Position numbers and translations under genes: made by a program | The notes under the pieces: generated by a model | Told to the model about the DNA's origin: nothing | Seen by the model: only the letters and a program-made list of their open reading frames with translations | Databases searched by the model: none | In this document: positions 3,673 to 34,529 of the stretch, piece after piece | Layout of the letters: the number at the start of each line of letters is the position of its first letter | How positions within the stretch are numbered: the stretch's first letter is position 1 | Assembly (NCBI GenBank): GCA_035285325.1 | Contig: JAYKJB010000117.1 | Coordinates: 832-64,831 of the forward strand | Direction of reading: 5' to 3' | Source of the DNA: Candidatus Sericytochromatia bacterium | GTDB lineage: Bacteria > Cyanobacteriota > Sericytochromatia > S15B-MN24 > JAQBPE01 | DNA length: 64,000 bases

Positions 3673-4647
3673 TCACGCGCTCGCCGCTTGTGTGCGGGCC
3701 AGCCCCACCAGATCTCGACTTACCTGGTCGAGGCGCTCCGCCACGGCGTCGTCATGCACCACCGGGTTGGGGGAATGCAGCGGCCAGCCGCCCCGGTTGG
3801 CACTGCGGTCGCGATAGAGCCCCAGCTGGCTGAAATACGCCCCAGGGTGAGCCGGAACCTCGGGCGAGAGCAAGGCGTAGAGCGTCGTCTGGGTGCCTTC
3901 CCAGGGTTCCAGCATGCCGGCCAGGCGCAGGATCGGGCGCAAGGCGATGTCCTGCACCCAGAGCGGAATGGTCCCACTGATCAGGTTGGTGCGCACCCAG
4001 CCCGGATGCACGCTGACGGCGGTGATCCCGCTGCCGGCCAGGCGCCGGGCCAGCTGCCGGGCATGCAGCACGTTGGCCAGCTTCGACTGAGCATAAGCCG
4101 CCCAGCCATCGTAGGGGCGACGGTCGAAATGCAGGTCATCGAAGTCGATGCGGCCCTCACGACCAAAGGCGAGGTCGTGGTAGCAGCTGGCCACGTTGAC
4201 GATGCGCCCGGCCTCCGCCCGTTGCAGAGCCGGCAGCAGCAATTCGGTCAGCAGGTAGTGGCCCAGGTGGTTGGTGCCGAACTGGCTTTCAAAGCCGTCC
4301 GGGGTCTTGCCGTGAGGCGTGTTCATCACCCCCGCATTGTTGACCAGGCCGTGGAGCGGCTGGTTCGCCGCCAGGAATTCCTGCGCGAAGGCGCGCACGG
4401 AGTCGAGCCGGGCCAGGTCGAGCGGCGCGACCGTCACCTCGCCGCGCGCGCGCCCCTGGGCGATTTCCTGGCGCACGCGCTCGCCCTCGGCCGGCCGGCG
4501 ACAGGCCAGGATCACGCGGGCGCCCTGCTTGGCCAGCTGGCGCACCGTCACCAGGCCAATACCGGAATTCCCCCCGGTCACGAGGTAGGTGCGACCGGCC
4601 AGGTCGAGTTGCAACAGGTCGGGGGGACACATCAAGGGGCGGGCCAT
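3673..4647 (-). CDS. Short-chain dehydrogenase/reductase, retinol-dehydrogenase-like
   Basis: TGGNSGIG Rossmann motif, NNAG, and the catalytic YAQSK (YxxxK). The internal ATG at 4647 is preceded by GGAGG; the longer ORF to 4722 is probably an over-extension. Confidence 0.85.
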   Translation of the reverse strand: MARPLMCPPDLLQLDLAGRTYLVTGGNSGIGLVTVRQLAKQGARVILACRRPAEGERVRQEIAQGRARGEVTVAPLDLARLDSVRAFAQEFLAANQPLHGLVNNAGVMNTPHGKTPDGFESQFGTNHLGHYLLTELLLPALQRAEAGRIVNVASCYHDLAFGREGRIDFDDLHFDRRPYDGWAAYAQSKLANVLHARQLARRLAGSGITAVSVHPGWVRTNLISGTIPLWVQDIALRPILRLAGMLEPWEGTQTTLYALLSPEVPAHPGAYFSQLGLYRDRSANRGGWPLHSPNPVVHDDAVAERLDQVSRDLVGLARTQAASA

Positions 4648-4838
4648 CGGAAACCTCCAAGGTCTGGGCACAGGCCGGGCGCCTTCGCTGCGCGCAGGCC
4701 GCCGGGGCGACACCCCGAGCACTCCATTGAACCATCTCCGCGCCGCTTTGAACGCCCCGCTCGCGGGCGTGATACCATCCTCAGCGAGCCAGCCGGACCA
4801 ACGGCTCAGGCTCTGTCGCCCGGAAAGGACCCTGGTCG

Positions 4839-6272
4839 ATGTCTGCTCTGCTCGCCTTGACGCTCCTCGTATGGGGCTGCGCGCCGGTCCTGGCCAGTGC
4901 CGGGCACACCCCTGCGGGCGTCGATCTGACCGGCCACTGGCAGGCGCTCGCCGCGCTGGCGGTGTTCGTGCTCGGCTACGCCCTGGTGATGGCCGAAGAG
5001 CGGCTGCACCTGCGCAAATCCAAGCCCATGCTGGTGGCCGCCGGCCTGATCTGGATCCTGGTGGCCCTGGGTTACACGCAGGCCGGCATGCCGGCCGTCG
5101 CCGAAGCCGCCGTGCGCCACAACATCATGGAGTTCGGCGAGCTGTTCCTGTTCCTGATCGCCGCGATGACCTACGTCAACACGATCGAGGAGCGCGGCGT
5201 GTTCGATGCCCTGCGCGTCCGTCTGGTGCAGGCGGGGCTTTCCTATCGGGCCCTGTTCTGGGTCACCGGGGCCTTTGCCTTCTGCCTCTCCCCGATCGCC
5301 GACAACCTGACCACCGCGCTGGTGGCCGGGGCGGTGGTGCTCTCGGTGGGGGCCACCCAGCCGCGCTTCGTGCCGCTGGCCTGCATCAACATCGTGGTAG
5401 CGGCCAATGCGGGAGGCGCCTTCTCGCCATTTGGCGACATCACCACCCTGATGGTCTGGCAGAAGGGCACGGTCCAGTTTGGCCAGTTCTTTGCGTTGCT
5501 GGGGCCCGCCCTGGTCAACTGGCTGGTGCCGGCGGCCCTGATGGCCTGGGCGATCGGGGCCGGCAAACCGCCGCACGTCGAACAGGCGGCCGAGATTCGC
5601 GAGGGCGCCTGGGTCGTGGTCGGCCTGTTCATCGCCACGATCGCGCTGGCGGTGGTGCTCCACGCCTGGCTGCACCTGCCGCCGGTGGTGGGCATGATGA
5701 CGGGCCTCGGCCTCCTGAAACTCTACGCCTACGGCCTGCAGCGCCGGAATCATCACCCGGCACTGGTGCTGGATGAGCCGGACGACGTGTTCGCCGCCCC
5801 CTCGCTCGACGCCAACCACCCCAAAGCCGGGCCCTTCGACCCCTTCAAGCAAATGGAACGGGCCGAGTGGGACACGCTGATGTTCTTCTACGGCGTGATC
5901 ATGGCCGTCGGCGGGCTGGGCACGCTGGGCTACCTGGCGCTGGCCTCGCAGGCGCTGTATGGCGGTCTGGGCGCCACCGGCGCGAATGTGCTGGTGGGTC
6001 TGCTGTCGGCGGTGGTCGACAACATTCCGGTCATGTTCGCGGTGCTGTCCATGAACCCGGACATGCCGATCGGCCAGTGGTTGCTGGTGACGCTCACGGC
6101 CGGCGTGGGCGGCTCGCTGCTGTCGATCGGCAGCGCCGCCGGGGTGGCCCTGATGGGGCAGGCCCGCGGGCATTATGGCTTCGCGTCGCACCTGCGCTGG
6201 GCCTGGGCGATCGCCCTCGGCTACGCCGCCAGCATCGGCGTCCACCTGCTGCTCAACCGCCACCTGTTCTGA
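4839..6272 (+). CDS. nhaD: NhaD-family Na+/H+ antiporter
   Basis: 477 aa polytopic membrane protein with strong similarity to NhaD antiporters over its length (hydrophobic segments, AANAGGAFSPFGDITTLMVW region). Confidence 0.8.
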   Translation: MSALLALTLLVWGCAPVLASAGHTPAGVDLTGHWQALAALAVFVLGYALVMAEERLHLRKSKPMLVAAGLIWILVALGYTQAGMPAVAEAAVRHNIMEFGELFLFLIAAMTYVNTIEERGVFDALRVRLVQAGLSYRALFWVTGAFAFCLSPIADNLTTALVAGAVVLSVGATQPRFVPLACINIVVAANAGGAFSPFGDITTLMVWQKGTVQFGQFFALLGPALVNWLVPAALMAWAIGAGKPPHVEQAAEIREGAWVVVGLFIATIALAVVLHAWLHLPPVVGMMTGLGLLKLYAYGLQRRNHHPALVLDEPDDVFAAPSLDANHPKAGPFDPFKQMERAEWDTLMFFYGVIMAVGGLGTLGYLALASQALYGGLGATGANVLVGLLSAVVDNIPVMFAVLSMNPDMPIGQWLLVTLTAGVGGSLLSIGSAAGVALMGQARGHYGFASHLRWAWAIALGYAASIGVHLLLNRHLF

Positions 6273-6274
6273 AG

Positions 6275-6997
6275 TCAGTCGCCGCCGGCGTGACCGCGAC
6301 CAGCCTCGCTGGTGAGGTCCGGGGCAAAGAGCAGGGTCACCATCAGGATGTGATCATGGGCCCAGCCCAGCAGCGGGTCGGGCCGCTGCCGCCACATGTA
6401 CTCGGTGGTCAGCCGCGTGGCCCGGTTGATCACCCGCGCAGCCCCCACCGTGAAACGGCTTTGCACCAGCGTGTAAGGCAGCGCGGGGCGAAGGTCCCAG
6501 GCCAGCTCCTGCGACAGCGTCGGCCACCAGTTCCAGGCGGCCGGCTGATAGCTCACGCGCAGCTGATTGCGGTAGCGCCACCAGACGTCGCCCGGCGTGT
6601 GCCGCCACTCCAGACGATTGCGGTCGTTGATCTGCAGGTCGCCGATCGCCCCCTGCAGGTTCGGCTCACATTCGAGGCGCAGCATCTGGTTGAAGGCCCC
6701 ATTGCCGGCCTGCTCGGCATAGGCACTGGCGTGGAGGCCCAGCATCAGCCAGGGCGCCGGCTGCCAGAGCGGCCCAACGCGCAGGCTGGAAACCCCCAGG
6801 CCGCCATAGCGAAAGCCGAAGCGGCTGCTGCTGACGGCGCGCAAGGCCCGCGGACTCCAGGGCACCGGGCGCTCCAGCGGCACGCGCACCTCCAGCACGT
6901 TCCAGAATTCGCTGTCGGCGAGGACCGGGCTGGGCCAGGCCCCCAGGCCCGCGAGGGCGAGGCCCAGCGCCAACCCTGCGCGCGATTTCGTGCCCAT
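6275..6997 (-). CDS. Secreted/outer-membrane protein of unknown function (DUF2490-like)
   Basis: Signal peptide MGTKSRAGLALGLALAGLGAWPSPVLA. About 240 aa, W/Y/R-rich beta-rich composition typical of DUF2490. Confidence 0.5.
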   Translation of the reverse strand: MGTKSRAGLALGLALAGLGAWPSPVLADSEFWNVLEVRVPLERPVPWSPRALRAVSSSRFGFRYGGLGVSSLRVGPLWQPAPWLMLGLHASAYAEQAGNGAFNQMLRLECEPNLQGAIGDLQINDRNRLEWRHTPGDVWWRYRNQLRVSYQPAAWNWWPTLSQELAWDLRPALPYTLVQSRFTVGAARVINRATRLTTEYMWRQRPDPLLGWAHDHILMVTLLFAPDLTSEAGRGHAGGD

Positions 6998-7051
6998 TCG
7001 ATGGCCTCCTCAGCGGGAACCGCAAGCGCCACATACCCCTGCCGCGGGTAC

Positions 7052-8545
7052 ATGTCGCCCATGGCCTCCCAGCAGCTGATGTCTTCCGACCCTCGCGCGC
7101 GGGCCTTCAATCGCGCCATGACCGCGGCCCCCGGCGACATGTCGCTGGTGGTACCAGCCGGCCAGATAGAAGGCCCCCTTCCGCCCGCCCTGCGAGGGGG
7201 GCGCCTGCTTTCGAACGGCCCGGGCTGGACCCGCATCGGCGATCGCCTGGCCCATCCCTTCGACGGCCACGGCTACGTGCGCGCCTTCGAATTCCTGCCG
7301 GATGGCGCGCTGCGCTTGCAGGCCCGTTTCGTCGAGACCCGGGTCTATCGCGACGAACGCAGCGCCGGCCGCCTGCGTCACCGCGGGCTCGCCACCAACC
7401 GCGGCCCACGCTTCTGGCACAACCTCGGTTTCGGCCCGCCCCGCAACGTGGCGAACACCACGATCGTGCCGTGGGGGGGCCAACTGCTGGCCGGCTGGGA
7501 GGGCGGGGTGCCCCACGCCTTGGAGCCGGAAACGCTGGCCACGCGGGGGGAGGAGACCTTCGGCGGCGCGCTGGCCGGCCAGGCCACCCTGGCACACATG
7601 CGCCACGACCATGCCTGCGATCGCCTGGTGACCTGCAGCCTGGCCATGGGACGTCAGACCGGTTTGACCTTTCGCGAGTTCGACCCGGCGGGACGGCTCG
7701 TGCAGAGTCACGCCGCCCAGCTTCCCGGCGCGCGCTTTGTCCATGACTTCGCCCTGACCCCGGGCTGGTTCGTGCTGGGAGACAACCCGCTGCGCGTGCG
7801 GCCTGCGGGCCTGGCGCGCATGCTGCTCGGCCGCGGCACCATGCTGCAGGCCGTCGCCCCGGACGATCGCCCGCCCGGCGCGCTGCATCTGGTCTCGCGC
7901 GACGGCCGTGGCCGCACGCGCCGCGTGCGCCTGCCGGCAGCGGCCCAGATCCTGCACTTCGCCAATGCCTTCGAACGAGACGGCTGGCTGTTCGTGGATG
8001 CCTGCGTGTTCCACCGCTTCACGCTCGGTGAGGAATTCGGTTACCGCGGGCCCGACCAGCCCTTTGACCTCGCCCTGCCCGAGGCGCGCGGGCCGCAACG
8101 CCTGTACCGCATCACGATCCCGCCGGAGGCCACGGAAGCCGGCTGGGAACTGCTGACGCCCCATGGGGTCGACTTCCCGCGCATCCACCCGGCCCATGAG
8201 GGACAAAACACCCGCTGGCTCTTTGGCGCGACCCGAAGAGACCCGCGCTTCAGTGACCCATTCGATTCCCTGATCGCGATCGACCTGCACGATCGCGATC
8301 GCGCAGCCCAGCTGTTCAGCGTGCCGGACGCCTGTACCTTCGTGGGCGAGCCGATCTTCGCGCCGGACCCGGCGGACCCGGGCCAGGGGCACGTGCTGGC
8401 CGTGCTCTCGGATGGCGCGCAGGGGCGCTCGCGGCTGGCCGTTTTCGACGCCACGGACCTCGCGCGGGGACCGCTCGCCCAGGTGCCGCTACCGCTCTTG
8501 CCGCTGGCCTTCCACGGGGCCTGGTTGCCTGGTGCGAAGGTTTGA
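7052..8545 (+). CDS. Carotenoid-cleavage-oxygenase (RPE65/CCO) family dioxygenase
   Basis: 497 aa from the ATG at 7052 (the track ORF over-extends to 5867). Four conserved His regions (HPFDGHGY, HDFALTPGWFVL, HFANAF, HGAWLP) typical of CCO/lignostilbene dioxygenases. Confidence 0.8.
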   Translation: MSPMASQQLMSSDPRARAFNRAMTAAPGDMSLVVPAGQIEGPLPPALRGGRLLSNGPGWTRIGDRLAHPFDGHGYVRAFEFLPDGALRLQARFVETRVYRDERSAGRLRHRGLATNRGPRFWHNLGFGPPRNVANTTIVPWGGQLLAGWEGGVPHALEPETLATRGEETFGGALAGQATLAHMRHDHACDRLVTCSLAMGRQTGLTFREFDPAGRLVQSHAAQLPGARFVHDFALTPGWFVLGDNPLRVRPAGLARMLLGRGTMLQAVAPDDRPPGALHLVSRDGRGRTRRVRLPAAAQILHFANAFERDGWLFVDACVFHRFTLGEEFGYRGPDQPFDLALPEARGPQRLYRITIPPEATEAGWELLTPHGVDFPRIHPAHEGQNTRWLFGATRRDPRFSDPFDSLIAIDLHDRDRAAQLFSVPDACTFVGEPIFAPDPADPGQGHVLAVLSDGAQGRSRLAVFDATDLARGPLAQVPLPLLPLAFHGAWLPGAKV

Positions 8546-8617
8546 CAAGACTTGGCCCCCCGGGGACGATGATGTCGGCGCGCCGCGGCCGCCGGGTCTG
8601 GAGAGGACGCATCCTGG

Positions 8618-9538
8618 ATGAACCTGTCGGTATTGCTGGCCTGGTTTGATGGCAGCACGGGCCGCGAGGCCGCGGGCGAACGCCTGGACTGGCTGCGCGC
8701 CGGCCCCTTTCTGGCCATCCACGCGCTGTGCGGCCTGGCCTGGTACACCGGCGTGAGCCCGACCGCCATCGCGGTGGCGGTGGGCCTTTACCTGGTGCGC
8801 ATGTTCGCCATCACGGCCTTTTACCATCGCTATTTCTCCCACCGCGCCTTCAAGACCTCGCGGGCCTTTCAGTTCCTGATGGCGCTGCTCGGCAACAGTG
8901 CGGTCCAGCGCGGGCCGATCTGGTGGGCCGCGCATCACCGGCATCACCACCGCCATTCAGACCGCCCCGAGGACCTGCACTCGCCCGTCCAGTACGGATT
9001 CTGGCAAAGCCACGTGCGCTGGTTCCTGACGGGCCGTGGCTTTGCGACCCAGAGCCAGTACGTGACGGACCTGCTGGCCTACCCGGAACTGCGCTGGCTC
9101 GACCGCTTCGACTGGGTCGGCCCGGTGGCCCTGCTGGCCGCGCTGGCGGCCAGCGGCGCCGCCCTGCAGACCTGGGCGCCCGACCTCGGCACCAGCGCCG
9201 CGCAGCTGGTGGTCTGGGGCTTCGCCATCTCGACGGTGGCGACGTGGCACGTCACCTACACGATCAACTCGCTCTCGCACCAGTGGGGCACGCGCCGCTA
9301 CCAGACCAACGATGACAGCCGCAACAACTGGCTGCTGGCGCTGCTGACGCTCGGCGAGGGCTGGCACAACAACCACCATCATCACCAGAGTTCGGCCCGC
9401 CAGGGTTTTTTCTGGTGGGAAATTGACCTGGCATACTATGGCCTGCGCCTGCTGGCAGCCTTGCGGCTGGTCTGGGATCTGCGGCCCGTTCCCGCCCACG
9501 TTCTGCTGAAGAACCGATCCGAGGTCCCTGCCGCATGA
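8618..9538 (+). CDS. Membrane fatty-acid desaturase (acyl-CoA/acyl-lipid delta-9 desaturase family)
   Basis: Three histidine boxes HRYFSH, HHRHHH and HNNHHH. RBS GGAGAGGA upstream. Confidence 0.85.
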   Translation: MNLSVLLAWFDGSTGREAAGERLDWLRAGPFLAIHALCGLAWYTGVSPTAIAVAVGLYLVRMFAITAFYHRYFSHRAFKTSRAFQFLMALLGNSAVQRGPIWWAAHHRHHHRHSDRPEDLHSPVQYGFWQSHVRWFLTGRGFATQSQYVTDLLAYPELRWLDRFDWVGPVALLAALAASGAALQTWAPDLGTSAAQLVVWGFAISTVATWHVTYTINSLSHQWGTRRYQTNDDSRNNWLLALLTLGEGWHNNHHHHQSSARQGFFWWEIDLAYYGLRLLAALRLVWDLRPVPAHVLLKNRSEVPAA

Positions 9539-10848
9539 GCCCGACCGGCGCCCCTACCACCCCGGAGACCCCCGCGCGGACAGGCCTCGGACAGGCGTTC
9601 TGCCGCTCCCTGGTGCTGAAAGGCTTCGCGGCCCTTCAGCGTGGCACCCTCACCCTGCACGAGGGAGGTCAGCGCCACACCTTCGGGGGCCGCGAACGGG
9701 CGGACCTGCAAGCCGAACTGACCATTCGGGATGGTGCGGCCTGGCGTCGCATCGCGCTGGGGGGCTCACTCGGCGCGGCTGAGGCCTATCTGCGCGGGGA
9801 ATGGGTCAGCCAGGACCTGCCCAGCCTGATTCGCCTGTTCGCGGCCAACCTGGCGGTTGCCGACGAGATGGAATCGACGCTCTCGCGCCTGCTGAACCTG
9901 CCCCAGGCCCTGGCGCACCGCCTGCGTCGCAACAGCCGGCAGGGGAGCCGCCGCAACATCCGCGACCACTACGACCTGGGCAACGACTTCTTCGCGCTGT
10001 TCCTCGACCCCAGCCTGACCTACTCCTGCGCCTGGTTCGACACGCCCGACACCCCGCTCGAGGCGGCCTCGATCGCCAAGCTTGACCGCGTCTGTCGCAA
10101 GCTGGCCCTGGGACCGAACGACCGCGTGGTCGAGATCGGCAGCGGTTGGGGCAGCTTCGCCCTGCACGCGGCCGGTCACTATGGCTGCCACGTCACGACC
10201 ACGACCATCTCGGACGCCCAGTATGAGGTGGCGTCCCGGCGCATCGCGGAGGCCGGCCTGACGGAGCGCATCACCCTGCTCAAGCAGGATTACCGCACCC
10301 TGACGGGCCAGTTCGACAAGCTCGTCTCGATCGAGATGATCGAGGCCGTGGGCGCGGACTTCATGGACGACTACTTCGCGACCCTGAGCCGCCTGCTGCG
10401 CCCGGATGGCCAGCTGCTGATCCAGGCCATCACCATGCCGGAGCAGCGTTTCGCGGCCTACCTGCGCTCGGTGGATTACATCCAGCACTATGTCTTCCCG
10501 GGCAGTGCCCTGACCTCGATCGGCGCCATGGCGCGCGCGGTCGGCCAGGCCACCGACCTGGGTTTCTTCCACGTGGAGGACATGTCCGCCCACTACGCGC
10601 GCACCCTGCAGTGCTGGCGCGACACCTTTCTGGCCCGCCGCGAGGCGGTGCTGGCGCTCGGCCCTTACGACGAACGCTTCATCCGCCTGTGGGACTACTA
10701 CCTGGCCTACTGCGAGGCCGGGTTCGCCGAACGCTGCACCGGCGTGGTACAGCTGGTGCTGACCAAGCCGGGCTGCCGCCGCGGCCCCATCGAGCTGCCG
10801 CTGCCAGCGGTAGCTTCTCAGGAGACGCCCAGCCTGGCCGTGGTCTAG
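9535..10848 (+). CDS. cfa: Cyclopropane-fatty-acyl-phospholipid synthase family methyltransferase
   Basis: SAM motif VVEIGSGWGSFALHAA, CFA-synthase C-terminal YDERFIRLWDYYLAYCEAGF. A 4-bp ATGA overlap with the desaturase stop implies translational coupling. Confidence 0.85.
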   Translation: MSPTGAPTTPETPARTGLGQAFCRSLVLKGFAALQRGTLTLHEGGQRHTFGGRERADLQAELTIRDGAAWRRIALGGSLGAAEAYLRGEWVSQDLPSLIRLFAANLAVADEMESTLSRLLNLPQALAHRLRRNSRQGSRRNIRDHYDLGNDFFALFLDPSLTYSCAWFDTPDTPLEAASIAKLDRVCRKLALGPNDRVVEIGSGWGSFALHAAGHYGCHVTTTTISDAQYEVASRRIAEAGLTERITLLKQDYRTLTGQFDKLVSIEMIEAVGADFMDDYFATLSRLLRPDGQLLIQAITMPEQRFAAYLRSVDYIQHYVFPGSALTSIGAMARAVGQATDLGFFHVEDMSAHYARTLQCWRDTFLARREAVLALGPYDERFIRLWDYYLAYCEAGFAERCTGVVQLVLTKPGCRRGPIELPLPAVASQETPSLAVV

Positions 10849-11495
10849 GCCCCGCCCAGCATCCGCCAGACGGCCAACTGCACGTCCTGGAAGAAGCGCG
10901 TCTGCCGCAGCCAGGCATCGCCCAGCAGATAGCCCCCGATGCCGAGGGCGGCAGCGGCCAGCACCATCGGCAAGCCCGTGCCCAGCAGGCCGCCCAGCAT
11001 CGCCGTGCCGGCGGCGGAGGCCAGCGCCCCGGTGGTGCCACCGACCACCGAGGCCATCGCGTCGCCCACCACGTTCACGCCGGCCTGAGCCCCCGTGATG
11101 CGACGCTCGGCCAGCGCCCACAGATTCAAGCCGAGGGAGAGGCCCGTGCCCCAGAGCGCCGAGGACCGGATCGCGTTGCCCAGTCGCCCCAGCACGCGCG
11201 AACTGGCTCCCATGCCCACTTCGGCCCCGCCGCGTCGGCTGTAGCTGCTGCGGAACTGGCCGTAGCGATCGTAGCTGCCGCCGTAACCGCCGTAATCCCC
11301 GGCATAGCGGGGACGGCTGCGCCGGCGCGCCGCACTGAGGGCCTTCTGCCAGGCCCGTCCGCTCTGCAAGCCGGCCACCGTGCCCGGCACGAGCTGCGCC
11401 ATCTCGGCGAGCGGCAGGCCGGGCGAGGCTGAGGCCACCGTCGCGGGCGCAGGGCCTGCGGCGGGCGTGCCGGGAAGGGAAGGGCTGACCAACAT
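10845..11495 (-). CDS. Glycine-rich membrane protein, hypothetical
   Basis: GAGGAGA RBS 7 nt upstream of the ATG at 11495. N-terminal Gly/Tyr/Arg-rich region and a C-terminal Gly/Ala-rich hydrophobic segment. High GC3. Confidence 0.5.
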   Translation of the reverse strand: MLVSPSLPGTPAAGPAPATVASASPGLPLAEMAQLVPGTVAGLQSGRAWQKALSAARRRSRPRYAGDYGGYGGSYDRYGQFRSSYSRRGGAEVGMGASSRVLGRLGNAIRSSALWGTGLSLGLNLWALAERRITGAQAGVNVVGDAMASVVGGTTGALASAAGTAMLGGLLGTGLPMVLAAAALGIGGYLLGDAWLRQTRFFQDVQLAVWRMLGGA

Positions 11496-11796
11496 GATGA
11501 TTCTCCTCTGGCTTGTCGCTCATGTCTGGTCGGGCGGTTACAGCCGAGTAACAAGATCGGGAAAATCGTCCTAAGATTCTGTTAAATATCCGTCAAGAGA
11601 GCACCAAAAAACGTTCGCGCGTCAAGACCGTTCCTGCAAGCCCACTCTCCTCGCCTCGCGCCGCTCCCCGCGCAGGGCGCTCCCTGGCAGTCCGATGAAA
11701 AAACGGCATAATGAAAACCCAGGCTCGGCTCACCCTCACAGACCGCGGCCTGCCGCCCGTTTCCTGTCCCTGCTCCTGTTCGAGGAACGCTTCCCG
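11496..11796. promoter_or_regulatory. Low-GC divergent intergenic region upstream of msrB and the Gly-rich membrane protein gene
   Basis: gggaaaatcgtcctaagattctgttaaatatccgtcaagagagcaccaaaaaac. The only other markedly AT-enriched 300 bp in this part of the window. Confidence 0.3.
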
Positions 11797-12384
11797 ATGC
11801 TGCGCGCCCACCGATTCTTCTCCCTGCCCACGGCCAGCCTGCTGCTCGCGATGCTGGTGGCCTGCAGCGGCATCCCGGCCGAAAGTGCCCCCACCCCGGC
11901 CGGCAGCGCCGCCTACTCGGGGGCGCGAGTCAGCCTGAGCCCGGCTGCCTGGCGGGCGCGGCTCTCGCCCGAGGCCTATCGGGTGCTACGCGAGAAGGGC
12001 ACCGAACGAGCCTTCAGCGGCGCCCTCTGGAACGAGCACGGCACGGGCACCTACCAGTGTGCCGGCTGTGACTTGCCGGTGTTCGCTTCCGAGAGCAAGT
12101 TCGAATCCGGTACGGGCTGGCCCAGCTTCTTTCAGCCGCACACCCCCGGCCACGTGCGCGAAGCCCCGGATGACAGCCTCTGGATGAAGCGCACGGAGGT
12201 CTTGTGCGCCCGCTGCGACGGCCACCTGGGACACGTCTTTTCGGATGGGCCTGCGCCCACTGGCCTGCGCTACTGCATCAACTCGGCGGCCTTGCGCTTC
12301 GTGCCAAAGGCGCAGACGGGAGCTCCCAAGCTGTTCAAGCGAGGCGGAACGCCGGCAACCGCCCCCAGGCCAGGGAGCAGATGA
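11797..12384 (+). CDS. msrB: Peptide-methionine (R)-S-oxide reductase MsrB with lipoprotein signal peptide
   Basis: GAGGAA RBS. Lipobox [11 protein letters not shown]. SelR domain with CxxC...CxxC zinc motif ([19 protein letters not shown]) and the GWPSF motif. Confidence 0.85.
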
Positions 12385-12399: not shown

Positions 12400-13809
12400 T
12401 CAGGCCATTTCGATAGCGCGGCGCTGCATGTCGAGGAAGACGCGCAGTTGCTCGCGGGTGAGCCGCCCCTGAGAGACCAGCACCTGGCCCAGGGGCGTGC
12501 CACTCCGTTCGGCTTCGTCCAGCGCCTGAGCGAGCTGCGAAGGTTTGATCACGCCGTGTTCCACCAGGAACAGCCCCAGCGGGCGCGGGCCACTGCCTTC
12601 CACGCTCAGGCGCGATTGCAGGGCCACGGCAAAATTGAGCTTGGTCTCGTCGATATAGCCCAGTTCCAGCGCCAGCTGGCCGAAGGCGATGTGCTTGCCC
12701 AGCCGCCGACGCCGGATCTGCTCGACCACCACGTGCTGGAGTTGCTCGTGCGAGAGGATATCCTCGCGCTGAAGGATGGCGCCCAGTAGCGATCGCAACC
12801 CCGCGCCGCCCATGGCCGAGCCGATCGCCGGCAACAGGTTCGGATCGCCGGCCGACTCCCCGGGACGCAGGTGCGGTGCCGCAGCCGGACGTCCTTCCGC
12901 TTGCGTCTGGCTGGATCCCGCCTCGCCCCCCGGGACGGGATTGAGTTCGAAGGCCTGCAGCACCCGCGGGCTGGTCAGCCCCTCGGCCACGATCAGCTCC
13001 CGCAGGGGGCCCCCCTCCTTGGCGTGCCGGTCCAGCACCACCAGCATGGAGACGGGAGAGACCAGGTCCAGCTGGAGCAGGTGGTCGACGAACATGCGAT
13101 CCAACGGGTCGAGCCGCTGCATCTGGTGCTGAAACGCCAGCGTGAAGTTCAGCTGGTAGGGCTCGAGCAAGCCGAGCATGACACAGGTTTCGCCCAGCTT
13201 CAGGCGTTTGCCGGCCGCAAGGCTGCGCTGCTGAGCCCGCAAGGCGGCCTCGAGTTCATTGCGGCCGAGCAGCCCCTGGCGGGCCAGAATCAGGCCAAAC
13301 AGTGGCCCCTGGAGCGTCGCCGCCGGGTCGACCGAGGGGTCCGCCGCAGGCAACGGGGCGCAGAACAGTCCAATGCCCTCCTTCACCCCACTCAGCTGGC
13401 GCAATACCAGATCGCCCACCTCCACCGCCACCTCGGCCTCGGGCCACAGCCACCACATGCCATCGCGCAGCGGAATGGGTGCCTCCTCGGACTCATCGAC
13501 GCCCGGCCCGATCCAGGCGCTGGGAATCACCATGGCTCCCCCGTTCGAGAGTTCGAAGGCCCACAGACCGCTCTGCAGCCGCCGCACCTCCAGCGCCCGC
13601 ACGTCCGGAGCCCCGAGCTCGGGGCCCACCGCCGTGGCCCAGACCGCCAGCAGGGTTTCGCGCGCCGCCAGGAAACCCGCGCGCACGCGCGCCTCCTCCT
13701 CGGACGCAGGCTTGCTGTCCTGATTGAAGGAGCTGATGCGAAGCGCCCATTCCCGCCCCGAATGCCACACCGTCGCCTCGGCCGGCATGCGTCCGGGCCT
13801 GAGTACCAT
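12400..13809 (-). CDS. Hypothetical protein with tandem T2SS-GspE-N-terminal-like (MshEN-type) domains
   Basis: Three repeats of the pattern L(S/T)xEQL..AL..Q...G.(R/K)LGE.L...G.I....L..AL. Start taken at the internal ATG at 13809. Confidence 0.45.
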   Translation of the reverse strand: MVLRPGRMPAEATVWHSGREWALRISSFNQDSKPASEEEARVRAGFLAARETLLAVWATAVGPELGAPDVRALEVRRLQSGLWAFELSNGGAMVIPSAWIGPGVDESEEAPIPLRDGMWWLWPEAEVAVEVGDLVLRQLSGVKEGIGLFCAPLPAADPSVDPAATLQGPLFGLILARQGLLGRNELEAALRAQQRSLAAGKRLKLGETCVMLGLLEPYQLNFTLAFQHQMQRLDPLDRMFVDHLLQLDLVSPVSMLVVLDRHAKEGGPLRELIVAEGLTSPRVLQAFELNPVPGGEAGSSQTQAEGRPAAAPHLRPGESAGDPNLLPAIGSAMGGAGLRSLLGAILQREDILSHEQLQHVVVEQIRRRRLGKHIAFGQLALELGYIDETKLNFAVALQSRLSVEGSGPRPLGLFLVEHGVIKPSQLAQALDEAERSGTPLGQVLVSQGRLTREQLRVFLDMQRRAIEMA

Positions 13810-14247
13810 GAGCGAAGGCGTTGCGGTCACGAGGTGGCTCCTCTGGGGTCGGCCCGGCAGCCAGGCGCCCACTGGCGCCGCGCGGGATGACAGGGCCGAA
13901 AGCGGCTGCCTCCAGCATACCCGAAGGCGCGCCGCTTGATTCGCGGCGAGGAGCAGAGGGCCGAATTTGCCCCGCATTCCAAAGAAACCAGGGAGTGAGG
14001 GGAAGCGACTTGCAGTGAAATGGTTTCGAAGCGGGAATGGTGTTGAGGGGCCCCGAGCGAGGGGGGTGCCCTCGCCCCTTCATCCGCAGGAACGACGCCC
14101 TTTTCCGATGACCCCCGACCCGACCACCGCTCCTTGCTGTCACGACCAGCAGTACAACAACCGCGCCCGAGTGCCCCAGGCCGAGGCCCACCTGGCCGAC
14201 CCGGCCCAGCGCCTCCACCGCCTGACCCGCGACTGGTTGACCCAGCC

Positions 14248-15432
14248 CTAGGCCGCGGCCGGCTGCCCCGCCGCCGGGGCCGGGGCGACGCGGAAGGCCC
14301 GCAAGAAGAAGGCCGGCATGCGCCCGCTGGCCAACCAGATCAGCGAAGGAATCATCTCCAGGCCGATGCGCCAGGCCAGCGGCAGCTGCCCGTTGAAGAA
14401 CCAGTACTTGTCGGAGCAGGCAAAGCAGATCACCACCGTCACGGCCAGCACCAGCAGGGCGATCACGTTGTCCTCCCGGTGCCGCTCCCAGTCGTGGGGC
14501 AGCCCCCGGACCTCCGACTTGTAGAGGGCGTAGCCGTTCACCAGGTCGAGCACCGGATAGAACGAGAACAGCACCAGCAACTCCAGGTGATAGCCCCACA
14601 AGAAATGGCCGGGATCGATGGTGAGCAGGCGATGGAAGATGTAGGGCAGCGTGATGAAGCAGCAGGCCAGGCTGAACAGGTGCTGACCGAAAATCAGGCG
14701 CGTGGGCACCCCACGCAGCGCGTTGATGTGACACCCGACGCTGAGAAACGACACGCCGAAGGCGCCGATGAAGCCGAGCGACATGAGCGATTTATCGCCG
14801 TGGGAGCCACCGGCGTGCGCCGCGGTGATCAGGCTCGGAAAGCCGAAATCGCCGGCCAGCTGGGTGAAGAAGAGGATCAAGCCGGTGGCCGCCATCAGGT
14901 AGACGTTGGTGAGCAGCATACGCGACACCGCCAGCCGGATCGAGGCCGCGGCCCGGCTGGTCAGGAACATGGCACACAGCGAGATGCAGGAGATACCGCC
15001 GAACACGTGCATGAAGTCGACCAGCAGGCGGGAAAGCGCATGGTCCCCCGTGAGCGAATGGCGGGTGAAGATGGCGTGGATCGGCGCGGCCTGATAGGCC
15101 GGCAGCAGGTGCTCGCCATCGCCGATCGGGGCCGTGAACAGGGACTCACCCGGCTGGGTGCGGGGCGCGGGGGCGGGGGCGGGCGGCAGTTGCGCCACGC
15201 GCTGGCGCAGCAACTGGGAAAAGGCCGTGCCCTCGGGGCGACCGGCCGCCATGCGCCAGGCCTCGGCGCCAGCCTCGAAGGTGAGCCAGCCGGCCAGGAT
15301 CAGGATCAGGGCCAGCAGGCCCTTGGACAGGTTGGAAAGCGACGCCACGGCAGAACTCCAAGGGAAAGAACGGCACCTCGCGCCGTCCGGACGGTGAGGG
15401 ACGGGCTGTTGCCGCCACCCAGGTGGCGGCAA
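14248..15432 (-). CDS. Polytopic membrane protein of unknown function, last gene of the lipoxygenase cluster
   Basis: Multiple hydrophobic helices (LLALILILAGW, LCAMFLTS, LILFFTQLAG, VLFSFYPVLDLV, VLAVTVVICFACS). Immediately downstream of the lipoxygenase gene on the same strand. Start uncertain. Confidence 0.55.
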   Translation of the reverse strand: MPPPGWRQQPVPHRPDGARCRSFPWSSAVASLSNLSKGLLALILILAGWLTFEAGAEAWRMAAGRPEGTAFSQLLRQRVAQLPPAPAPAPRTQPGESLFTAPIGDGEHLLPAYQAAPIHAIFTRHSLTGDHALSRLLVDFMHVFGGISCISLCAMFLTSRAAASIRLAVSRMLLTNVYLMAATGLILFFTQLAGDFGFPSLITAAHAGGSHGDKSLMSLGFIGAFGVSFLSVGCHINALRGVPTRLIFGQHLFSLACCFITLPYIFHRLLTIDPGHFLWGYHLELLVLFSFYPVLDLVNGYALYKSEVRGLPHDWERHREDNVIALLVLAVTVVICFACSDKYWFFNGQLPLAWRIGLEMIPSLIWLASGRMPAFFLRAFRVAPAPAAGQPAAA

Positions 15433-15441: not shown

Positions 15442-16968
15442 TCAGTAACTGATCGAGGCCTTCCAGCGGTGCGGCTGCAGGCGCAGGAAGGGAATCGCAC
15501 GGGCCTGGTTCTCGGCGGCCAGGGTCTCATCCAGCTGCCCCAGCGCGTGCTGCAGGCCCATCAAGGAGGCCCGCAGCCGCGCGTCGGCCACCTTGGCGTC
15601 GAGGTCCATGGTCATCAGGAAGTTGCCGCCGTTATCGAAGCGTCCGGCATAGGCGCCCTGGTCGAACAGGAACACGTCCACCGCACGCGGCGGGTCCTGG
15701 TTCTCCGTCAGCAGGTTGTTGATGTGGATCAGCTTCTTGTGAGCCGGCACGTTCGACATGGTGAACGGTGAGAAGTCGCCGCAGACCTCATGCGAGACGT
15801 TCAGGTACAGGATCACCGTCAGCACCTCGACCAGCCGGTCGAGCGAGGCCAGCGGCAGGGCCTTCTGGCTGGCATCGGGCAGCAAGGCCACCAGCTGGGT
15901 GTACCAGGCCTGCAGGGCCGCATCGGCCGCCACCGCCGCATCGTCCCGATACACGGGCCCCACGTGGTTGCGCACGAAGGCTTCGAAGGTGTCCCAGATG
16001 CGCGGGGCGATCGCCACGTAGGGGTGATGGGGAATCCCGTCGATGCCCCGCTCGGCGATGTCCTTGCGCGGAATCAGCTGGTTCAGGCGGTAGCTCGGCA
16101 CGAAATTCTCGAAGGCCCGGCCCACCTGCTCGCCGGTGATGAAGTTCGACTGGATGAAGTAGCTGGCCGGCGTGACCAGCAACTTGAAGGCGAAGTCGTT
16201 GACCACCAGCGTGCCGTAGGTGAAGAAGTCCAGAAAGGGCCGCAGCGCGTGCTGAGCGGGCAGGGCCAGGGTCGAGATGGCGTAGGCCTGACCGGTGATC
16301 AGGTGGGTGTGTGCCAGGTGCCGCAAAAAGACGGTGAAGCGGGCGTCCAGCGCGTTGAAGACGAACTTGGCGCGTTCCCAGTCGGCATCGCCCGGGCGGC
16401 TGAGCCGATCGCCCCGGCGGATCGAGGCGACCCGAAACTGCTCGCCCTCGACCACAAAGGTGCCCACCACCGGCTCCATGATGCCGGCGAAGTGGGGTCC
16501 GAAATCGACCTCGTAGCGACCTTCCTGCACCCGCTGCAGCAGGAAGGGATTGGGGCCTTGCAGGCGCATGGCCGCAAAGGCGGCGTCATCGTGAATGTCA
16601 TTCCAGCCCTCGTCATGGGCCGGAAAGGGCGGATAGGGCATGGCGTCAGGCGACCAGGGCACTTCGGCCGACATGGGCGCGAGGCGCAGGGCATTGAACA
16701 CCACGCCGTCGAGGATGTAATAGGGCGCGATGTACTCGATCGACAGATGATTGGGGGCTGGGATGTAGCTGGGCACCTTGAGCGCCTCAGGCAGGATGCT
16801 GGAGCGGTAGTGCGAGCGCGCCGAAACGATCGGCGGCAGGCCCGCCGGTCGCGCGACCGGGTGCCGGAAGGTCTTGCGTGCCCAGATCTGCAAGGCGTTG
16901 CGGTTGACCTTGCGGGTGTCCAGAACCGCCTGGATTTTCAGGCGATCAACGAGGCCGAACGTCTTCAA
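15442..16968 (-). CDS. Lipoxygenase (bacterial mini-LOX, no PLAT domain)
   Basis: MRLQGPNPFLL motif, iron-ligand helix HLAHTHLI (H-x4-H), and a third His region NVSHEV. Start placed at the TTG after the GGGAGGG RBS. About 508 aa. The C-terminus is ...SISY rather than a terminal Ile. Confidence 0.8.
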   Translation of the reverse strand: MKTFGLVDRLKIQAVLDTRKVNRNALQIWARKTFRHPVARPAGLPPIVSARSHYRSSILPEALKVPSYIPAPNHLSIEYIAPYYILDGVVFNALRLAPMSAEVPWSPDAMPYPPFPAHDEGWNDIHDDAAFAAMRLQGPNPFLLQRVQEGRYEVDFGPHFAGIMEPVVGTFVVEGEQFRVASIRRGDRLSRPGDADWERAKFVFNALDARFTVFLRHLAHTHLITGQAYAISTLALPAQHALRPFLDFFTYGTLVVNDFAFKLLVTPASYFIQSNFITGEQVGRAFENFVPSYRLNQLIPRKDIAERGIDGIPHHPYVAIAPRIWDTFEAFVRNHVGPVYRDDAAVAADAALQAWYTQLVALLPDASQKALPLASLDRLVEVLTVILYLNVSHEVCGDFSPFTMSNVPAHKKLIHINNLLTENQDPPRAVDVFLFDQGAYAGRFDNGGNFLMTMDLDAKVADARLRASLMGLQHALGQLDETLAAENQARAIPFLRLQPHRWKASISY

Positions 16969-33501: not shown

Positions 33502-33596
33502 TGAAAACTTTACCTGATGAGTCTCACTTGTAACCGTCTTGCAACCTGCGGGTCGCATAAGACCCTTGTGAGCGGCGCGCCCCGCGCCCCCGAAAG

Positions 33597-33703
33597 TTTT
33601 CCACTCCCCATCCCACACTCCTCCAAAAACTCCAAACTCCTCCAATTCCAAAAAACTCCCAAATTCCATTCCCAAACTCCAAATTCCTCTCCAAACTCCA
33701 CTG
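33597..33703 (+). ncRNA. Candidate small RNA or structured 3' region: low-GC, CT-rich tract with about 12 ACUCC/CCUCC-like motifs, ending in an intrinsic terminator
   Basis: ccactccccatcccacactcctccaaaaactccaaactcctccaattccaaaaaactcccaaattccattcccaaactccaaattcctctccaaactcca. GC far below the local 70% and no ORF. Immediately followed by the hairpin plus T-run at 33707..33738. Confidence 0.3.
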
Positions 33704-33706
33704 AAC

Positions 33707-34487: not shown

Positions 34488-34529
34488 ACGCATCAAACAT
34501 CGCAGTCTCAACGCAGCACCATCTTCAAA

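What the first reader, a model, noticed from the sequence alone, without database searches (positions are those of the whole stretch)
7052..10848. Operon coupling a carotenoid-cleavage-oxygenase-family dioxygenase to a fatty-acid desaturase and a CFA synthase
Three same-strand genes. The desaturase stop and the cfa start overlap in ATGA at 9535..9538. The CCO family normally acts on carotenoids or stilbenes. Its co-transcription with two acyl-chain-modifying enzymes suggests either a lipid-linked polyene substrate or a membrane-remodelling stress module. The nearby SDR at 3673..4647 is retinol-dehydrogenase-like, which would fit retinal formation by the CCO enzyme followed by reduction; this retinoid link is speculative.
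Basis: partly seen in the sequence, partly recalled or inferred. Interest (0 to 1): 0.55.

Follow-up and report, generated by a model that had tools for sequence, protein, structure and literature searches.

The report
Carotenoid oxygenase beside desaturase–methylase lipid pair
Three same-strand genes are really there, but they look like two units: a stand-alone carotenoid-cleaving oxygenase, and a coupled desaturase–methyltransferase pair that is a cut-down furan-fatty-acid (light and oxygen stress) lipid cluster; the oxygenase's link to that cluster is confined to one uncultured lineage and is unexplained.

Summary
CCO 7052-8545, acyl-CoA desaturase 8618-9538 and a CFA-synthase-family methyltransferase 9535-10848 lie on the + strand, with a real ATGA overlap at 9535-9538.

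- **Desaturase–methyltransferase pair:** it is a conserved, translationally coupled unit. It is a reduced form of the widespread cluster desaturase–UfaD-like–UfaO-like(DUF1365)–CFA-like, which is of the furan-fatty-acid type. The two middle genes are absent from all 64 kb of the window.
- **Own promoter:** a TTGACA-N17-GACGAT element overlaps the CCO stop codon and is conserved upstream of the desaturase in all 7 related loci. The pair therefore probably has its own promoter.
- **The CCO:** it is closest to Synechocystis apocarotenoid oxygenase ACO (37% identity) and is not a lignostilbene dioxygenase.
- **CCO neighbours elsewhere:** about 70 orthologues, mostly in Myxococcota MAGs, have no lipid-gene neighbours. 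A third have a MarR-like gene directly upstream.
- **CCO neighbours in this lineage:** the CCO sits next to the desaturase in 7 of 9 loci, plus one contig holding only the CCO 3' end. Two contigs show UfaD-like–DUF1365–CCO–desaturase–CFA.
- **No shift in the CCO:** its sequence gives no sign of a change of function.

Best reading: a lineage-specific photo-oxidative-stress neighbourhood, not a shared-substrate pathway. The retinoid/SDR link is weak.

The parts
7033..7050 (+). Imperfect palindrome ATACCCCTGCCGCGGGTA directly upstream of the CCO start; candidate operator or 5'-UTR hairpin
   Evidence: It occurs once in the window, against 0.03 expected. It is conserved at the same place in L154 and L159, where it is a perfect 10+10 palindrome in L159, and is degenerate in L059. 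It is not found upstream of the desaturase.
7052..8545 (+). Carotenoid-cleavage-oxygenase family gene, ACO-like; alternative starts at 7061 and 7079
   Evidence: Pfam RPE65 scores 312 bits. The four iron-binding His (H182, H231, H302, H488) and second-shell E150 and E433 are invariant in 30 orthologues and align with those of ACO. It is 37% identical to Synechocystis ACO 2BIW over 439 positions.
8542..8570 (+). Promoter-like element TTGACA (8542-8547), 17-nt spacer, GACGAT (8565-8570); the -35 hexamer overlaps the CCO stop codon (8543-8545)
   Evidence: TTGACA and the A..AT of the -10-like hexamer are invariant at fixed spacing upstream of the desaturase in 7 loci, whatever gene lies upstream. 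The consensus scan did not report it because the -10 hexamer matches only 3 of 6.
8618..9538 (+). Acyl-CoA (stearoyl-CoA type) delta-9 fatty-acid desaturase
   Evidence: Pfam FA_desaturase. The three His boxes HRYFSH, HHRHHHRH and HNNHHHH are visible in the translation and are invariant in 25 homologues. The only solved relatives are the SCD1 structures 4YMK and 4ZYO. Sources name the homologues acyl-CoA or stearoyl-CoA delta-9 desaturase.
9535..9538 (+). ATGA stop/start overlap between desaturase and CFA gene (translational coupling)
   Evidence: Read directly in the window. The same junction occurs in L160, L161, L163 and L157.
9535..10848 (+). CFA-synthase-family SAM-dependent fatty-acyl methyltransferase, of the type found after DUF1365 in UfaD/UfaO clusters
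   Evidence: Pfam CMAS scores 273 bits. It falls below the NCBIfam equivalog cut-offs for true Cfa, at 255 against 400 and 282 against 600. It is 68-69% identical to the methyltransferase that follows UfaD-like and DUF1365 genes in L156, L164, L165 and L166. E. coli Cfa residues C139, E239 and Y317 are kept and H266 is Gln.
11695..12384 (+). MsrB methionine-sulfoxide reductase; context gene, possibly part of the same oxidative-stress neighbourhood
   Evidence: Pfam SelR and NCBIfam MsrB match. A methionine sulfoxide reductase is co-induced with CFA and DUF1365 genes in the Chlamydomonas singlet-oxygen response (PMC4067076). The association with the cluster is inferred only.

Best explanation
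The region holds two adjacent expression units, not one three-enzyme pathway.

**Unit 1: the oxygenase.** It is an ACO-like, four-histidine non-haem-iron oxygenase. It most probably uses O2 to cleave a double bond of a carotenoid or apocarotenoid-type conjugated polyene into two carbonyl products. It has its own upstream palindrome.

**Unit 2: the lipid pair.** It is a translationally coupled pair with its own conserved promoter-like element (TTGACA-N17-GACGAT), which overlaps the CCO stop codon. The acyl-CoA delta-9 desaturase introduces a cis double bond. The CFA-family SAM methyltransferase then adds one carbon at that bond in membrane lipid. The product would be a cyclopropane ring or, as with UfaM, a methyl-branched trans-olefin.

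**Origin of unit 2.** It is a cut-down form of the widespread cluster desaturase-UfaD-like-UfaO-like(DUF1365)-CFA-like, which is of the furan-fatty-acid type. The two middle genes are missing, so at this locus the pathway would stop at the methylated or cyclopropanated acyl chain.

**Origin of the adjacency.** The CCO neighbourhood is inherited within one uncultured lineage. Its most divergent sampled members carry UfaD-like-DUF1365-CCO-desaturase-CFA.

**Likely common theme.** The two units are probably linked by protection against light and singlet-oxygen damage of membranes, through co-regulation or co-selection rather than a shared substrate.

**Shown:** gene identities, junctions, comparative architecture.
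**Inferred:** promoter function, enzyme products, the stress theme.
For: **Identities.**

**Desaturase-CFA link.**
- Of 65 metagenomic desaturase loci with at least 1.3 kb downstream, 39 have an Amino_oxidase gene directly next and none has a CFA gene directly next.
- Of 46 loci with at least 3.6 kb downstream, 28 show Amino_oxidase-DUF1365-CMAS.
- Related organisms (CFA 68-69%, desaturase 66-71% identical) carry the full cluster (L155/L156, L166/L167).
- The window holds no Amino_oxidase, DUF1365 or DUF1295 homologue.
- UfaD, UfaO (DUF1365) and UfaM are necessary and sufficient for furan fatty acid synthesis in R. palustris, with gene numbers RPA2571-2570-2569 (PMC7380195).

**Separate units.**
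- The promoter-like element is invariant in 7 loci.
- The desaturase is inverted relative to the CCO in L059, L154 and L159.
- The palindrome is specific to the CCO upstream region.

**CCO independent of lipid genes.**
- None of 71 non-lineage CCO loci has a lipid gene next to it.
- A MarR-like gene lies directly upstream in 23 of 69 loci.
- Only 1 clade-specific substitution occurs among 159 positions conserved in the other orthologues.

**Stress theme.**
- MerR+B12-binding (CarH-like) regulators lie next to the canonical cluster in L155/L156 and L099.
- The Chlamydomonas singlet-oxygen regulon contains CFA, DUF1365 and methionine sulfoxide reductase genes.
- MsrB lies next to the pair in the window.
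Against: - In L161 the CCO start lies 1 nt after the DUF1365 stop, and all five genes are tightly packed on one strand. That looks like an operon that includes the CCO.
- CCO-desaturase adjacency persists through three different arrangements in 7 of 9 lineage loci, and the direct desaturase-CFA junction is seen only where a CCO is upstream. This could reflect selection for a functional link.
- No terminator separates the CCO from the desaturase, so read-through co-transcription is possible.
- Promoter function is inferred only from conservation, and its -10 hexamer is weak.
- No carotenoid-synthesis gene is in the window, so the CCO substrate is not supported by context.
- In R. sphaeroides the CFA-like gene after ufaO (RSP1089) is dispensable and UfaM lies elsewhere, so reading the CFA gene as UfaM-like from its position is ambiguous.
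Confidence: 0.55

Rival explanations
1. True functional coupling: the CCO is a working component of a variant furan-fatty-acid pathway. It would act on a lipid-linked conjugated system made by the neighbouring enzymes, for example by cleaving the methylated 10,12-diene or the furan ring of acyl chains, or by removing their oxidised products. All three window genes would be co-transcribed.
For: UfaD-like-DUF1365-CCO-desaturase-CFA clusters occur in L160 and L161, with a 1-nt DUF1365/CCO spacer in L161. The CCO is adjacent to the desaturase in 7 of 9 lineage loci. The three-gene order is shared by sub-lineages about 25-30% diverged in protein sequence. There is no terminator between the CCO and the desaturase. 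The UfaD product is a conjugated diene and UfaO is O2-dependent, so the chemistry is adjacent to CCO chemistry (PMC7380195).
Against: No CCO is known to cleave fatty-acyl substrates (own knowledge, and nothing was found). The CCO has only one clade-specific change relative to about 110 orthologues that have no lipid-gene neighbours. The desaturase keeps its own promoter-like element and is inverted in three genomes, where the CFA gene sits with UfaD-like and DUF1365 genes on another contig of the same MAG (L059 versus L164). The window lacks UfaD and UfaO, so the proposed substrate would not be made from this locus.
Confidence: 0.12
2. Retinoid route: the CCO makes retinal from apocarotenoids, as ACO does, and the nearby SDR (3673-4722, minus strand) reduces it to retinol. 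The lipid genes would be bystanders.
For: The best solved relative by far is the retinal-forming ACO, at 235 bits against 113 for the next match, with 37% identity. JGI sources annotate orthologues as apo-beta-carotenal 15,15'-oxygenase. The SDR belongs to the PRK06197/LPOR-like branch of SDRs and is syntenic in the sister MAG L059. An SDR homologue lies next to MarR-CCO in L007 and next to the CCO in L054.
Against: The SDR is on the opposite strand, behind NhaD and DUF2490. Its best solved matches are a mycobacterial SDR and protochlorophyllide reductases, not retinol dehydrogenases. The 64 kb contain no rhodopsin, carotenoid-synthesis or blh gene. An SDR is adjacent in only 2-3 of 73 CCO loci. 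At 37% identity, cleavage position cannot be inferred; characterised bacterial CCOs, including one from the myxobacterium Plesiocystis, are non-retinal-forming (PMC5133782).
Confidence: 0.08
3. Neutral neighbourhood: the CCO and the desaturase-CFA pair are functionally and regulatorily unrelated. The adjacency is inherited synteny in a small, closely related group of genomes.
For: The association is confined to one lineage with CCO at least 65% identical. Contexts inside the lineage are fluid, with arrangement types A, B and a type C without the desaturase in L001 and L162. The two units have separate cis-elements.
Against: Adjacency survives at least three rearrangements, and the CCO is embedded between cluster genes in L160 and L161. 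Both units have a plausible link to photo-oxidative stress.
Confidence: 0.25

Closest known systems
Synechocystis sp. PCC 6803 apocarotenoid-15,15'-oxygenase (ACO/Diox1; PDB 2BIW)
   Same: Same fold family (RPE65/CCO) and similar length. The four iron-binding His and two of the three second-shell acidic residues align. It is the best solved match by a wide margin, at 235 bits.
   Different: Identity is only 37%. The third second-shell residue is Asp, not Glu. No NCBIfam equivalog is reached. Substrate and cleavage position are untested. The genomic partners (MarR-like gene, or desaturase and furan-fatty-acid-type genes) are not those of cyanobacterial ACO.
Furan fatty acid gene sets ufaD-ufaO-ufaM (R. 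palustris RPA2571-2569) and the RSP1091-1087 operon of R. sphaeroides (Lemke et al. 2020, PMC7380195)
   Same: The window's CFA-family gene is 68-69% identical to the methyltransferase that follows Amino_oxidase (UfaD-like) and DUF1365 (UfaO family) genes in related organisms. The same gene order UfaD-like-DUF1365-CMAS is seen in L164 and L165.
   Different: The window lacks UfaD-like and DUF1365 genes altogether. It has a desaturase fused by ATGA to the methyltransferase and a CCO upstream. No reference UfaM, RSP1089 or UfaD sequence was available, so UfaD-like/UfaO-like calls rest on Pfam domains and orthology to UfaM rather than RSP1089 is undecided.
E. coli cyclopropane fatty acyl phospholipid synthase Cfa (PDB 6BQC)
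   Same: Same two-domain architecture. It is the best solved match at 179 bits. Bicarbonate-site residues C139, E239 and Y317 are conserved.
   Different: Identity is 33%. H266 is replaced by Gln in this and all cluster-type homologues. The NCBIfam PRK11705 score of 255 is below the cut-off of 400.
Stearoyl-CoA desaturase type acyl-CoA delta-9 desaturases (SCD1, PDB 4YMK/4ZYO; bacterial 'acyl-CoA desaturase')
   Same: Three His boxes, similar size, and a sequence match to SCD1. It is 60-68% identical to homologues across several phyla.
   Different: Here it is translationally coupled to a methyltransferase, and in this lineage it lies next to a CCO. Regiospecificity is untested.
MarR-like gene plus CCO bicistron of Myxococcota MAGs (uncharacterised)
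   Same: The CCO is orthologous at 51-65% identity, and nearly all conserved positions are shared.
   Different: The window has no MarR-like gene anywhere. Upstream is a divergent DUF2490 gene, and a palindrome takes the place of the regulator gene.

Membership tests
Carotenoid cleavage oxygenase superfamily (Pfam PF03055 RPE65) | Full-length match to the family profile | tested here: met
   312 bits, covering residues 38-493 against profile positions 15-469 of 469.
Carotenoid cleavage oxygenase superfamily (Pfam PF03055 RPE65) | Four iron-ligating histidines and second-shell acidic residues | tested here: met
   H182, H231, H302 and H488 are invariant in 30 orthologues and align with the ACO histidines. 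E150 and E433 are kept. The third acidic position is D374.
Apocarotenoid-15,15'-oxygenase (ACO/Diox1) subfamily | Close sequence relationship to characterised ACO and C15-C15' cleavage of apocarotenals | tested here: inconclusive
   It is the best solved relative (235 bits) but only 37% identical. Activity cannot be tested with these tools.
Lignostilbene-alpha,beta-dioxygenase clade (LsdA, NOV1/NOV2) | Score above the NCBIfam equivalog cut-off, with aromatic-catabolic neighbours | tested here: not met
   NF053778 scores 103.8 against a cut-off of 800, and NF053780 scores 103.3 against 650. PDB lignostilbene and NOV matches score 81-97 bits against 235 for ACO. No aromatic-catabolic genes were found nearby.
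Acyl-CoA delta-9 desaturase (SCD type) | Three histidine boxes HxxxxH, HxxHH, HxxHH in a membrane FA_desaturase domain | tested here: met
   HRYFSH (70-75), HHRHHHRH (106-113) and HNNHHHH (250-256) are present and invariant in 25 homologues. The only PDB hits are SCD1.
Cyclopropane fatty acyl phospholipid synthase (true Cfa equivalog) | NCBIfam equivalog score and the full bicarbonate-site residue set (C139, E239, H266, Y317 of E. coli Cfa) | tested here: not met
   PRK11705 scores 255 against a cut-off of 400, and CPFASynBruc scores 282 against 600. H266 is replaced by Gln, and the other three residues checked are kept. It is a member of the wider CMAS family (273 bits).
UfaM (unsaturated fatty acid methylase of the furan fatty acid pathway) | Orthology to RSP2144/RPA2569 and formation of a methyl-branched trans-olefin | not testable with these tools
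   No reference UfaM sequence was obtainable. There is only indirect evidence: 68-69% identity to the CMAS gene that follows UfaD-like and DUF1365 genes. This is the position of ufaM in R. palustris, but also of the dispensable RSP1089 in R. sphaeroides.
Furan fatty acid biosynthetic cluster (UfaM + UfaD + UfaO) | Presence of an FAD desaturase (UfaD, Amino_oxidase-type domain) and a DUF1365 oxygenase (UfaO) with the methylase | tested here: not met
   No Amino_oxidase, DUF1365 or DUF1295 homologue occurs in the 64-kb window (tblastn). They are present next to the CCO in L160 and L161, and on another contig in the sister MAG.
Single three-gene operon (CCO-desaturase-CFA) | One promoter, no internal promoter or terminator, conserved co-orientation | tested here: inconclusive
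   The genes share a strand, the gaps are 72 bp and -4 bp, and there is no terminator. However, a conserved promoter-like element lies in the 72-bp gap, and the desaturase is inverted in 3 of 7 related loci. Transcripts cannot be tested here.

The most novel reading that the evidence does not exclude
In this uncultured lineage an ACO-type carotenoid cleavage oxygenase has been recruited into the furan-fatty-acid gene cluster (UfaD-like-DUF1365-CCO-desaturase-CFA). It would act on a membrane-lipid-linked conjugated system, such as the methylated diene, the furan ring or their singlet-oxygen products. That would make it the first CCO working on fatty-acyl rather than isoprenoid or stilbenoid substrates. 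The window would hold a reduced form of that pathway.
Probability: 0.1. Interest if true: 0.8.

Novelty: new variant of a known kind. Interest (0 to 1): 0.45.

Why it matters
Furan fatty acids and related methylated acyl chains are membrane scavengers of singlet oxygen. Their bacterial pathway was worked out only in 2020, and the DUF1365 oxygenase step is still poorly understood.

- **A testable lead.** A lineage that places a carotenoid-type dioxygenase inside or beside this cluster, and reshuffles the cluster in several ways, links carotenoid breakdown to acyl-chain modification in photo-oxidative defence. This can be tested.
- **Natural variants.** The lineage supplies reduced versions of the cluster: a desaturase + methylase pair only, and a UfaD-like + DUF1365 + methylase set only. 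These could help assign the role of each enzyme.
- **Annotation.** If the link is only regulatory or neutral, the result is still useful. The 'cfa' gene here is probably not a plain cyclopropane synthase, and the 'operon' is probably two units.

Tried and rejected
- **Lignostilbene dioxygenase placement:** rejected on NCBIfam and PDB scores.
- **General synteny of the CCO with lipid genes:** rejected for the family at large, with 71 loci and none adjacent. My first conclusion, 'not syntenic anywhere', was itself wrong. It was corrected after context look-ups of the closest homologues.
- **Conserved neighbours of the CCO, by all-against-all ORF clustering:** only a MarR-like gene emerged.
- **Carotenoid, retinal or rhodopsin genes in the window:** none among 43 predicted genes scanned.
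- **Intrinsic terminator between the CCO and the desaturase:** none.
- **The CCO palindrome as a shared operator:** rejected, because it occurs only upstream of the CCO.
- **MerR-B12, MarR, Amino_oxidase, DUF1365 and DUF1295 homologues in the window:** none.
- **Neofunctionalisation of the CCO subclade:** not supported.
- **Look-up of the window's own CCO protein for contig context:** not on record.
- **Literature on a CCO/DUF1365 link:** none found.
- **The Halomonas ufaM paper:** it gave no distinguishing residues.
- **Rfam scan of the window:** no hit.
- **Separating UfaM from Cfa from RSP1089 by sequence:** not possible without reference sequences.

Full report
**1. Observation**

The window is GC-rich, about 69%. 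ORF listing and translation confirm three + strand genes:
- 7052-8545, 497 aa. Alternative starts are 7061 and 7079, and the NCBI protein P0001 corresponds to 7079.
- 8618-9538, 306 aa.
- 9535-10848, 437 aa.

Pfam gives RPE65 (312 bits), FA_desaturase (72.6 bits) and CMAS (272.7 bits). The ATGA at 9535-9538 is real. The CCO-desaturase gap is 72 bp and has no terminator-like structure.

**2. Surroundings**

| Coordinates | Strand | Gene |
|---|---|---|
| 3673-4722 | - | SDR (PRK06197/LPOR-like) |
| 4839-6272 | + | NhaD antiporter |
| 6275-6997 | - | DUF2490 |
| 10845-11495 | - | Conserved ORF without a family, convergent with the CFA gene |
| 11695-12384 | + | MsrB |
| 12400-13977 | - | Protein with a c-di-GMP-binding domain |

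A scan of the remaining predicted genes found no carotenoid-synthesis, rhodopsin, Amino_oxidase or DUF1365 gene. It did find a lipoxygenase-domain protein at 15442-16983. Rfam finds nothing.

**3. The CCO**

Thirty orthologues share invariant H182, H231, H302 and H488 and acidic E150 and E433. Against solved structures:
- Synechocystis ACO is far ahead at 235 bits, with 37% identity over 439 positions.
- The next match scores 113 bits, and lignostilbene, NOV and CAO1 enzymes score 75-97 bits.
- NCBIfam lignostilbene and 13,14-cleaving models score 85-104 bits against cut-offs of 650-800.

So this is an uncharacterised clade nearest to ACO, and it is not a lignostilbene dioxygenase. Characterised bacterial CCOs vary in cleavage site, and the one from the myxobacterium Plesiocystis does not form retinal (PMC5133782). 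Substrate and cleavage position therefore remain open.

**4. CCO context across genomes**

A scan of species-representative genomes returned 73 loci, nearly all MAGs and mostly labelled Myxococcota.
- tblastn with the window's proteins found no CFA homologue in any locus. A desaturase was adjacent only in L059, the sister MAG, and there it is on the opposite strand.
- ORF clustering found a single recurrent neighbour. It is a gene of about 150 aa that looks like a MarR-type winged-helix regulator by its sequence (no family search was run). It lies directly upstream on the same strand in 23 of 69 loci with enough flank.
- That gene is absent from the window.

**5. Desaturase-CFA context**

The desaturase is a highly conserved acyl-CoA delta-9 type. 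It is 60-68% identical to homologues in several phyla, has three His boxes, and SCD1 is its only solved relative.

In 80 metagenomic desaturase loci:
- Of 65 loci with at least 1.3 kb downstream, 39 carry an Amino_oxidase-type FAD enzyme directly next.
- Of 46 loci with at least 3.6 kb downstream, 28 carry Amino_oxidase-DUF1365-CMAS, often followed by DUF1295 and a second CMAS.
- None of the 65 has a CFA gene directly after the desaturase.

This is the furan-fatty-acid type of cluster.
- In R. sphaeroides, RSP1091 (UfaD) and RSP1090 (UfaO) are followed by a dispensable CFA-like gene, RSP1089 (PMC7380195).

The window's CFA protein is 68-69% identical to the CMAS that follows DUF1365 in related organisms (L156, L164, L165, L166). 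It keeps E. coli Cfa residues C139, E239 and Y317 but, like all cluster-type homologues, has Gln at H266. It scores below the true-Cfa equivalog cut-offs.

The window pair is therefore the canonical cluster minus its two middle genes. The canonical gene junctions are also 4-bp overlaps (gene coordinates), so a clean deletion between them could regenerate the ATGA overlap seen here. That step is inference.

**6. Revision: the lineage of the window**

Context look-ups of the closest homologues changed the picture. CCOs at least 65% identical to the window's form one cluster of 8 sequences. The arrangements are:

| Type | Loci | Arrangement |
|---|---|---|
| A | window | DUF2490(-), then CCO-desaturase-CFA |
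| A | L157 | Last 18 codons of a CCO (FPLLPLAFHGSW...), then desaturase-CFA |
| A | L160 | DUF1365 (cut by the contig end)-CCO-desaturase-CFA |
| A | L161 | Amino_oxidase-DUF1365-CCO-desaturase-CFA; 1 nt between the DUF1365 stop and the CCO start |
| A (probable) | L163 | Desaturase 3' end + CFA, same downstream genes as L161; the contig does not reach upstream of the desaturase, so no CCO is visible |
| B | L059, L154, L159 | DUF2490(-), CCO(+), desaturase(-), no CFA |
| C | L001, L162 | CCO followed by a secreted or NHL-like protein, no desaturase |

For type B, the methyltransferase sits in an Amino_oxidase-DUF1365-CMAS operon on another contig of the same MAG as L059 (L164, JAYKHR010000174). 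The same operon is found in the same sample as L154 and L159 (L165).

The CFA and desaturase identity matrices show that the window is a sub-lineage of its own. It is about equally distant from the other type A contigs and from the type B group.

**7. One operon or two units**

Upstream of the desaturase, all 7 loci share an invariant TTGACA, a 17-18-nt spacer and a (G/C)A(C/G)(G/C)AT hexamer, 64-76 nt before the start codon. This holds regardless of what lies upstream. In the window the TTGACA (8542-8547) overlaps the CCO stop codon. The rest of the intergenic sequence is poorly conserved. This footprint is best read as the desaturase's own promoter, and that is an inference.

The CCO has a different element. 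A palindrome at 7033-7050 is unique in the window and conserved in L154 and L159.

The desaturase-CFA ATGA junction is conserved in all five contigs that hold this pair. The most likely structure is therefore [CCO] + [promoter-desaturase-CFA], with read-through from the CCO still possible.

**8. Does the CCO work on the lipid pathway?**

Against:
- Among 159 alignment positions at least 90% conserved in the roughly 110 orthologues outside the lineage, 126 are identical in all 8 lineage members.
- Only one position (F325L) is a clade-specific change. A change of substrate class is therefore unlikely.

For:
- The CCO is embedded in the cluster in L160 and L161.
- The adjacency persists through three rearrangements.

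A unifying but unproven theme is photo-oxidative stress:
- In R. sphaeroides, singlet oxygen induces CFA-type gene expression through a sigma-E factor (as summarised in PMC4067076), and loss of the anti-sigma factor ChrR raises furan fatty acid levels (PMC7380195).
- CarH-like MerR+B12-binding regulators flank the canonical cluster in L155/L156 and L099.
- The Chlamydomonas singlet-oxygen regulon contains CFA1/2, a DUF1365 gene, a methionine sulfoxide reductase and a fasciclin gene (PMC4067076).
- The window has MsrB next door, and L164 has a fasciclin gene.
- Carotenoids quench singlet oxygen, and their oxidative breakdown yields apocarotenoids such as beta-cyclocitral (PMC4067076); ACO cleaves apocarotenals (PMC5133782).

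**9. The retinoid/SDR idea**

Only the ACO resemblance supports it. The counter-evidence is:
- The SDR is on the other strand behind two unrelated genes.
- Its best solved relatives are a mycobacterial SDR and protochlorophyllide reductases.
- SDR homologues are adjacent to the CCO in only 2-3 of 73 loci.
- No retinal-using protein is in the window.

**10. Comparison, novelty and verdict**

All three proteins are members of known families. The desaturase-CFA pair is a reduced variant of a known cluster type. Placement of an ACO-like CCO inside or beside that cluster is not mentioned in any paper of the searched library, and I class it as a new variant of a known kind.

| Explanation | Confidence |
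|---|---|
| Two adjacent units in a lineage-specific stress neighbourhood (main reading) | 0.55 |
| Neutral synteny | 0.25 |
| True shared-substrate coupling | 0.12 |
| Retinoid route with the SDR | 0.08 |

Interest is 0.45. The window itself holds the less informative, reduced form. It does point to the UfaD-like-DUF1365-CCO-desaturase-CFA clusters, which are worth an experiment.

Noticed in passing
window 15442-16983 (-), with flanking same-strand ORFs 14248-15432, 16946-18256 and 18193-19785: A 513-aa protein carries a lipoxygenase-domain match (37 bits, E 1.7e-9), 4.6 kb from the CFA gene. Its three neighbours have no Pfam hit. It may be another lipid-oxidising function in the neighbourhood.
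   Followed up: no
L003, L005, L007, L008, L010, L012, L016 and others (23 of 69 loci), directly upstream of the CCO match: A gene of about 150 aa that looks like a MarR-type regulator by its sequence is co-oriented with the CCO and often overlaps its start in Myxococcota MAGs. This bicistron is uncharacterised, and the gene is absent from the window.
   Followed up: partly
L155 6997-7980 (-), L156 2235-3218 (-), L099: A MerR + B12-binding (CarH/LitR-like light-sensing) regulator lies next to the canonical desaturase-Amino_oxidase-DUF1365-CMAS cluster. This suggests light control of furan-fatty-acid-type clusters.
   Followed up: partly
L059 (JAYKHR010000167) versus L164 (JAYKHR010000174): Within one MAG the genes are split. 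CCO and an inverted desaturase are on one contig, and Amino_oxidase-DUF1365-CMAS, followed by a fasciclin-domain gene, is on another. The same pattern is seen in sample 3300035703 (L154/L159 versus L165, which also has a BLUF gene 7 kb upstream).
   Followed up: partly
L059 6100-6304 versus window 5338-6126: The sister MAG keeps only short remnants of the NhaD antiporter gene between the SDR and DUF2490, which indicates a recent deletion.
   Followed up: no
window 7033-7050; L154 10426-10444; L159 1041-1060: A conserved palindrome (ATACCCC...GGGGTAT) lies immediately upstream of the CCO start codon. It is unique in the window. The factor that binds it, or any RNA role, is unknown.
   Followed up: partly
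window 9535-10848, residue aligned with E. coli Cfa H266: All cluster-type CMAS proteins (window, L157, L156, L079, L111) have Gln where E. coli Cfa has His266, which I recall from the literature as a bicarbonate-site residue. The second CMAS of the clusters keeps His. This may be a marker separating UfaM-like enzymes from true cyclopropane synthases.
   Followed up: partly
whole window / contig label: NCBI labels the source MAG and its relatives 'Candidatus Sericytochromatia'. The nearest CCO relatives outside the lineage are Myxococcota MAGs, and the nearest named desaturase and CFA relatives include Acidobacteriota and Planctomycetota MAGs. This points to horizontal transfer or uncertain binning, and it was not resolved.
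   Followed up: no
window 12400-13977 (-): A 525-aa protein ends in an MshE-type c-di-GMP-binding motif (NCBIfam NF053729, 97.5 bits) and has a weak DUF4388 match.
   Followed up: no
window 32800-36600: This stretch has lower GC (0.64-0.67 against about 0.69-0.74 elsewhere). It has no confident gene call by GC3 and no Rfam hit.
   Followed up: no
window 39910-41778 (-): A single ORF combines glycosyltransferase family 4/1 domains with a C-terminal class I methyltransferase domain.
   Followed up: no
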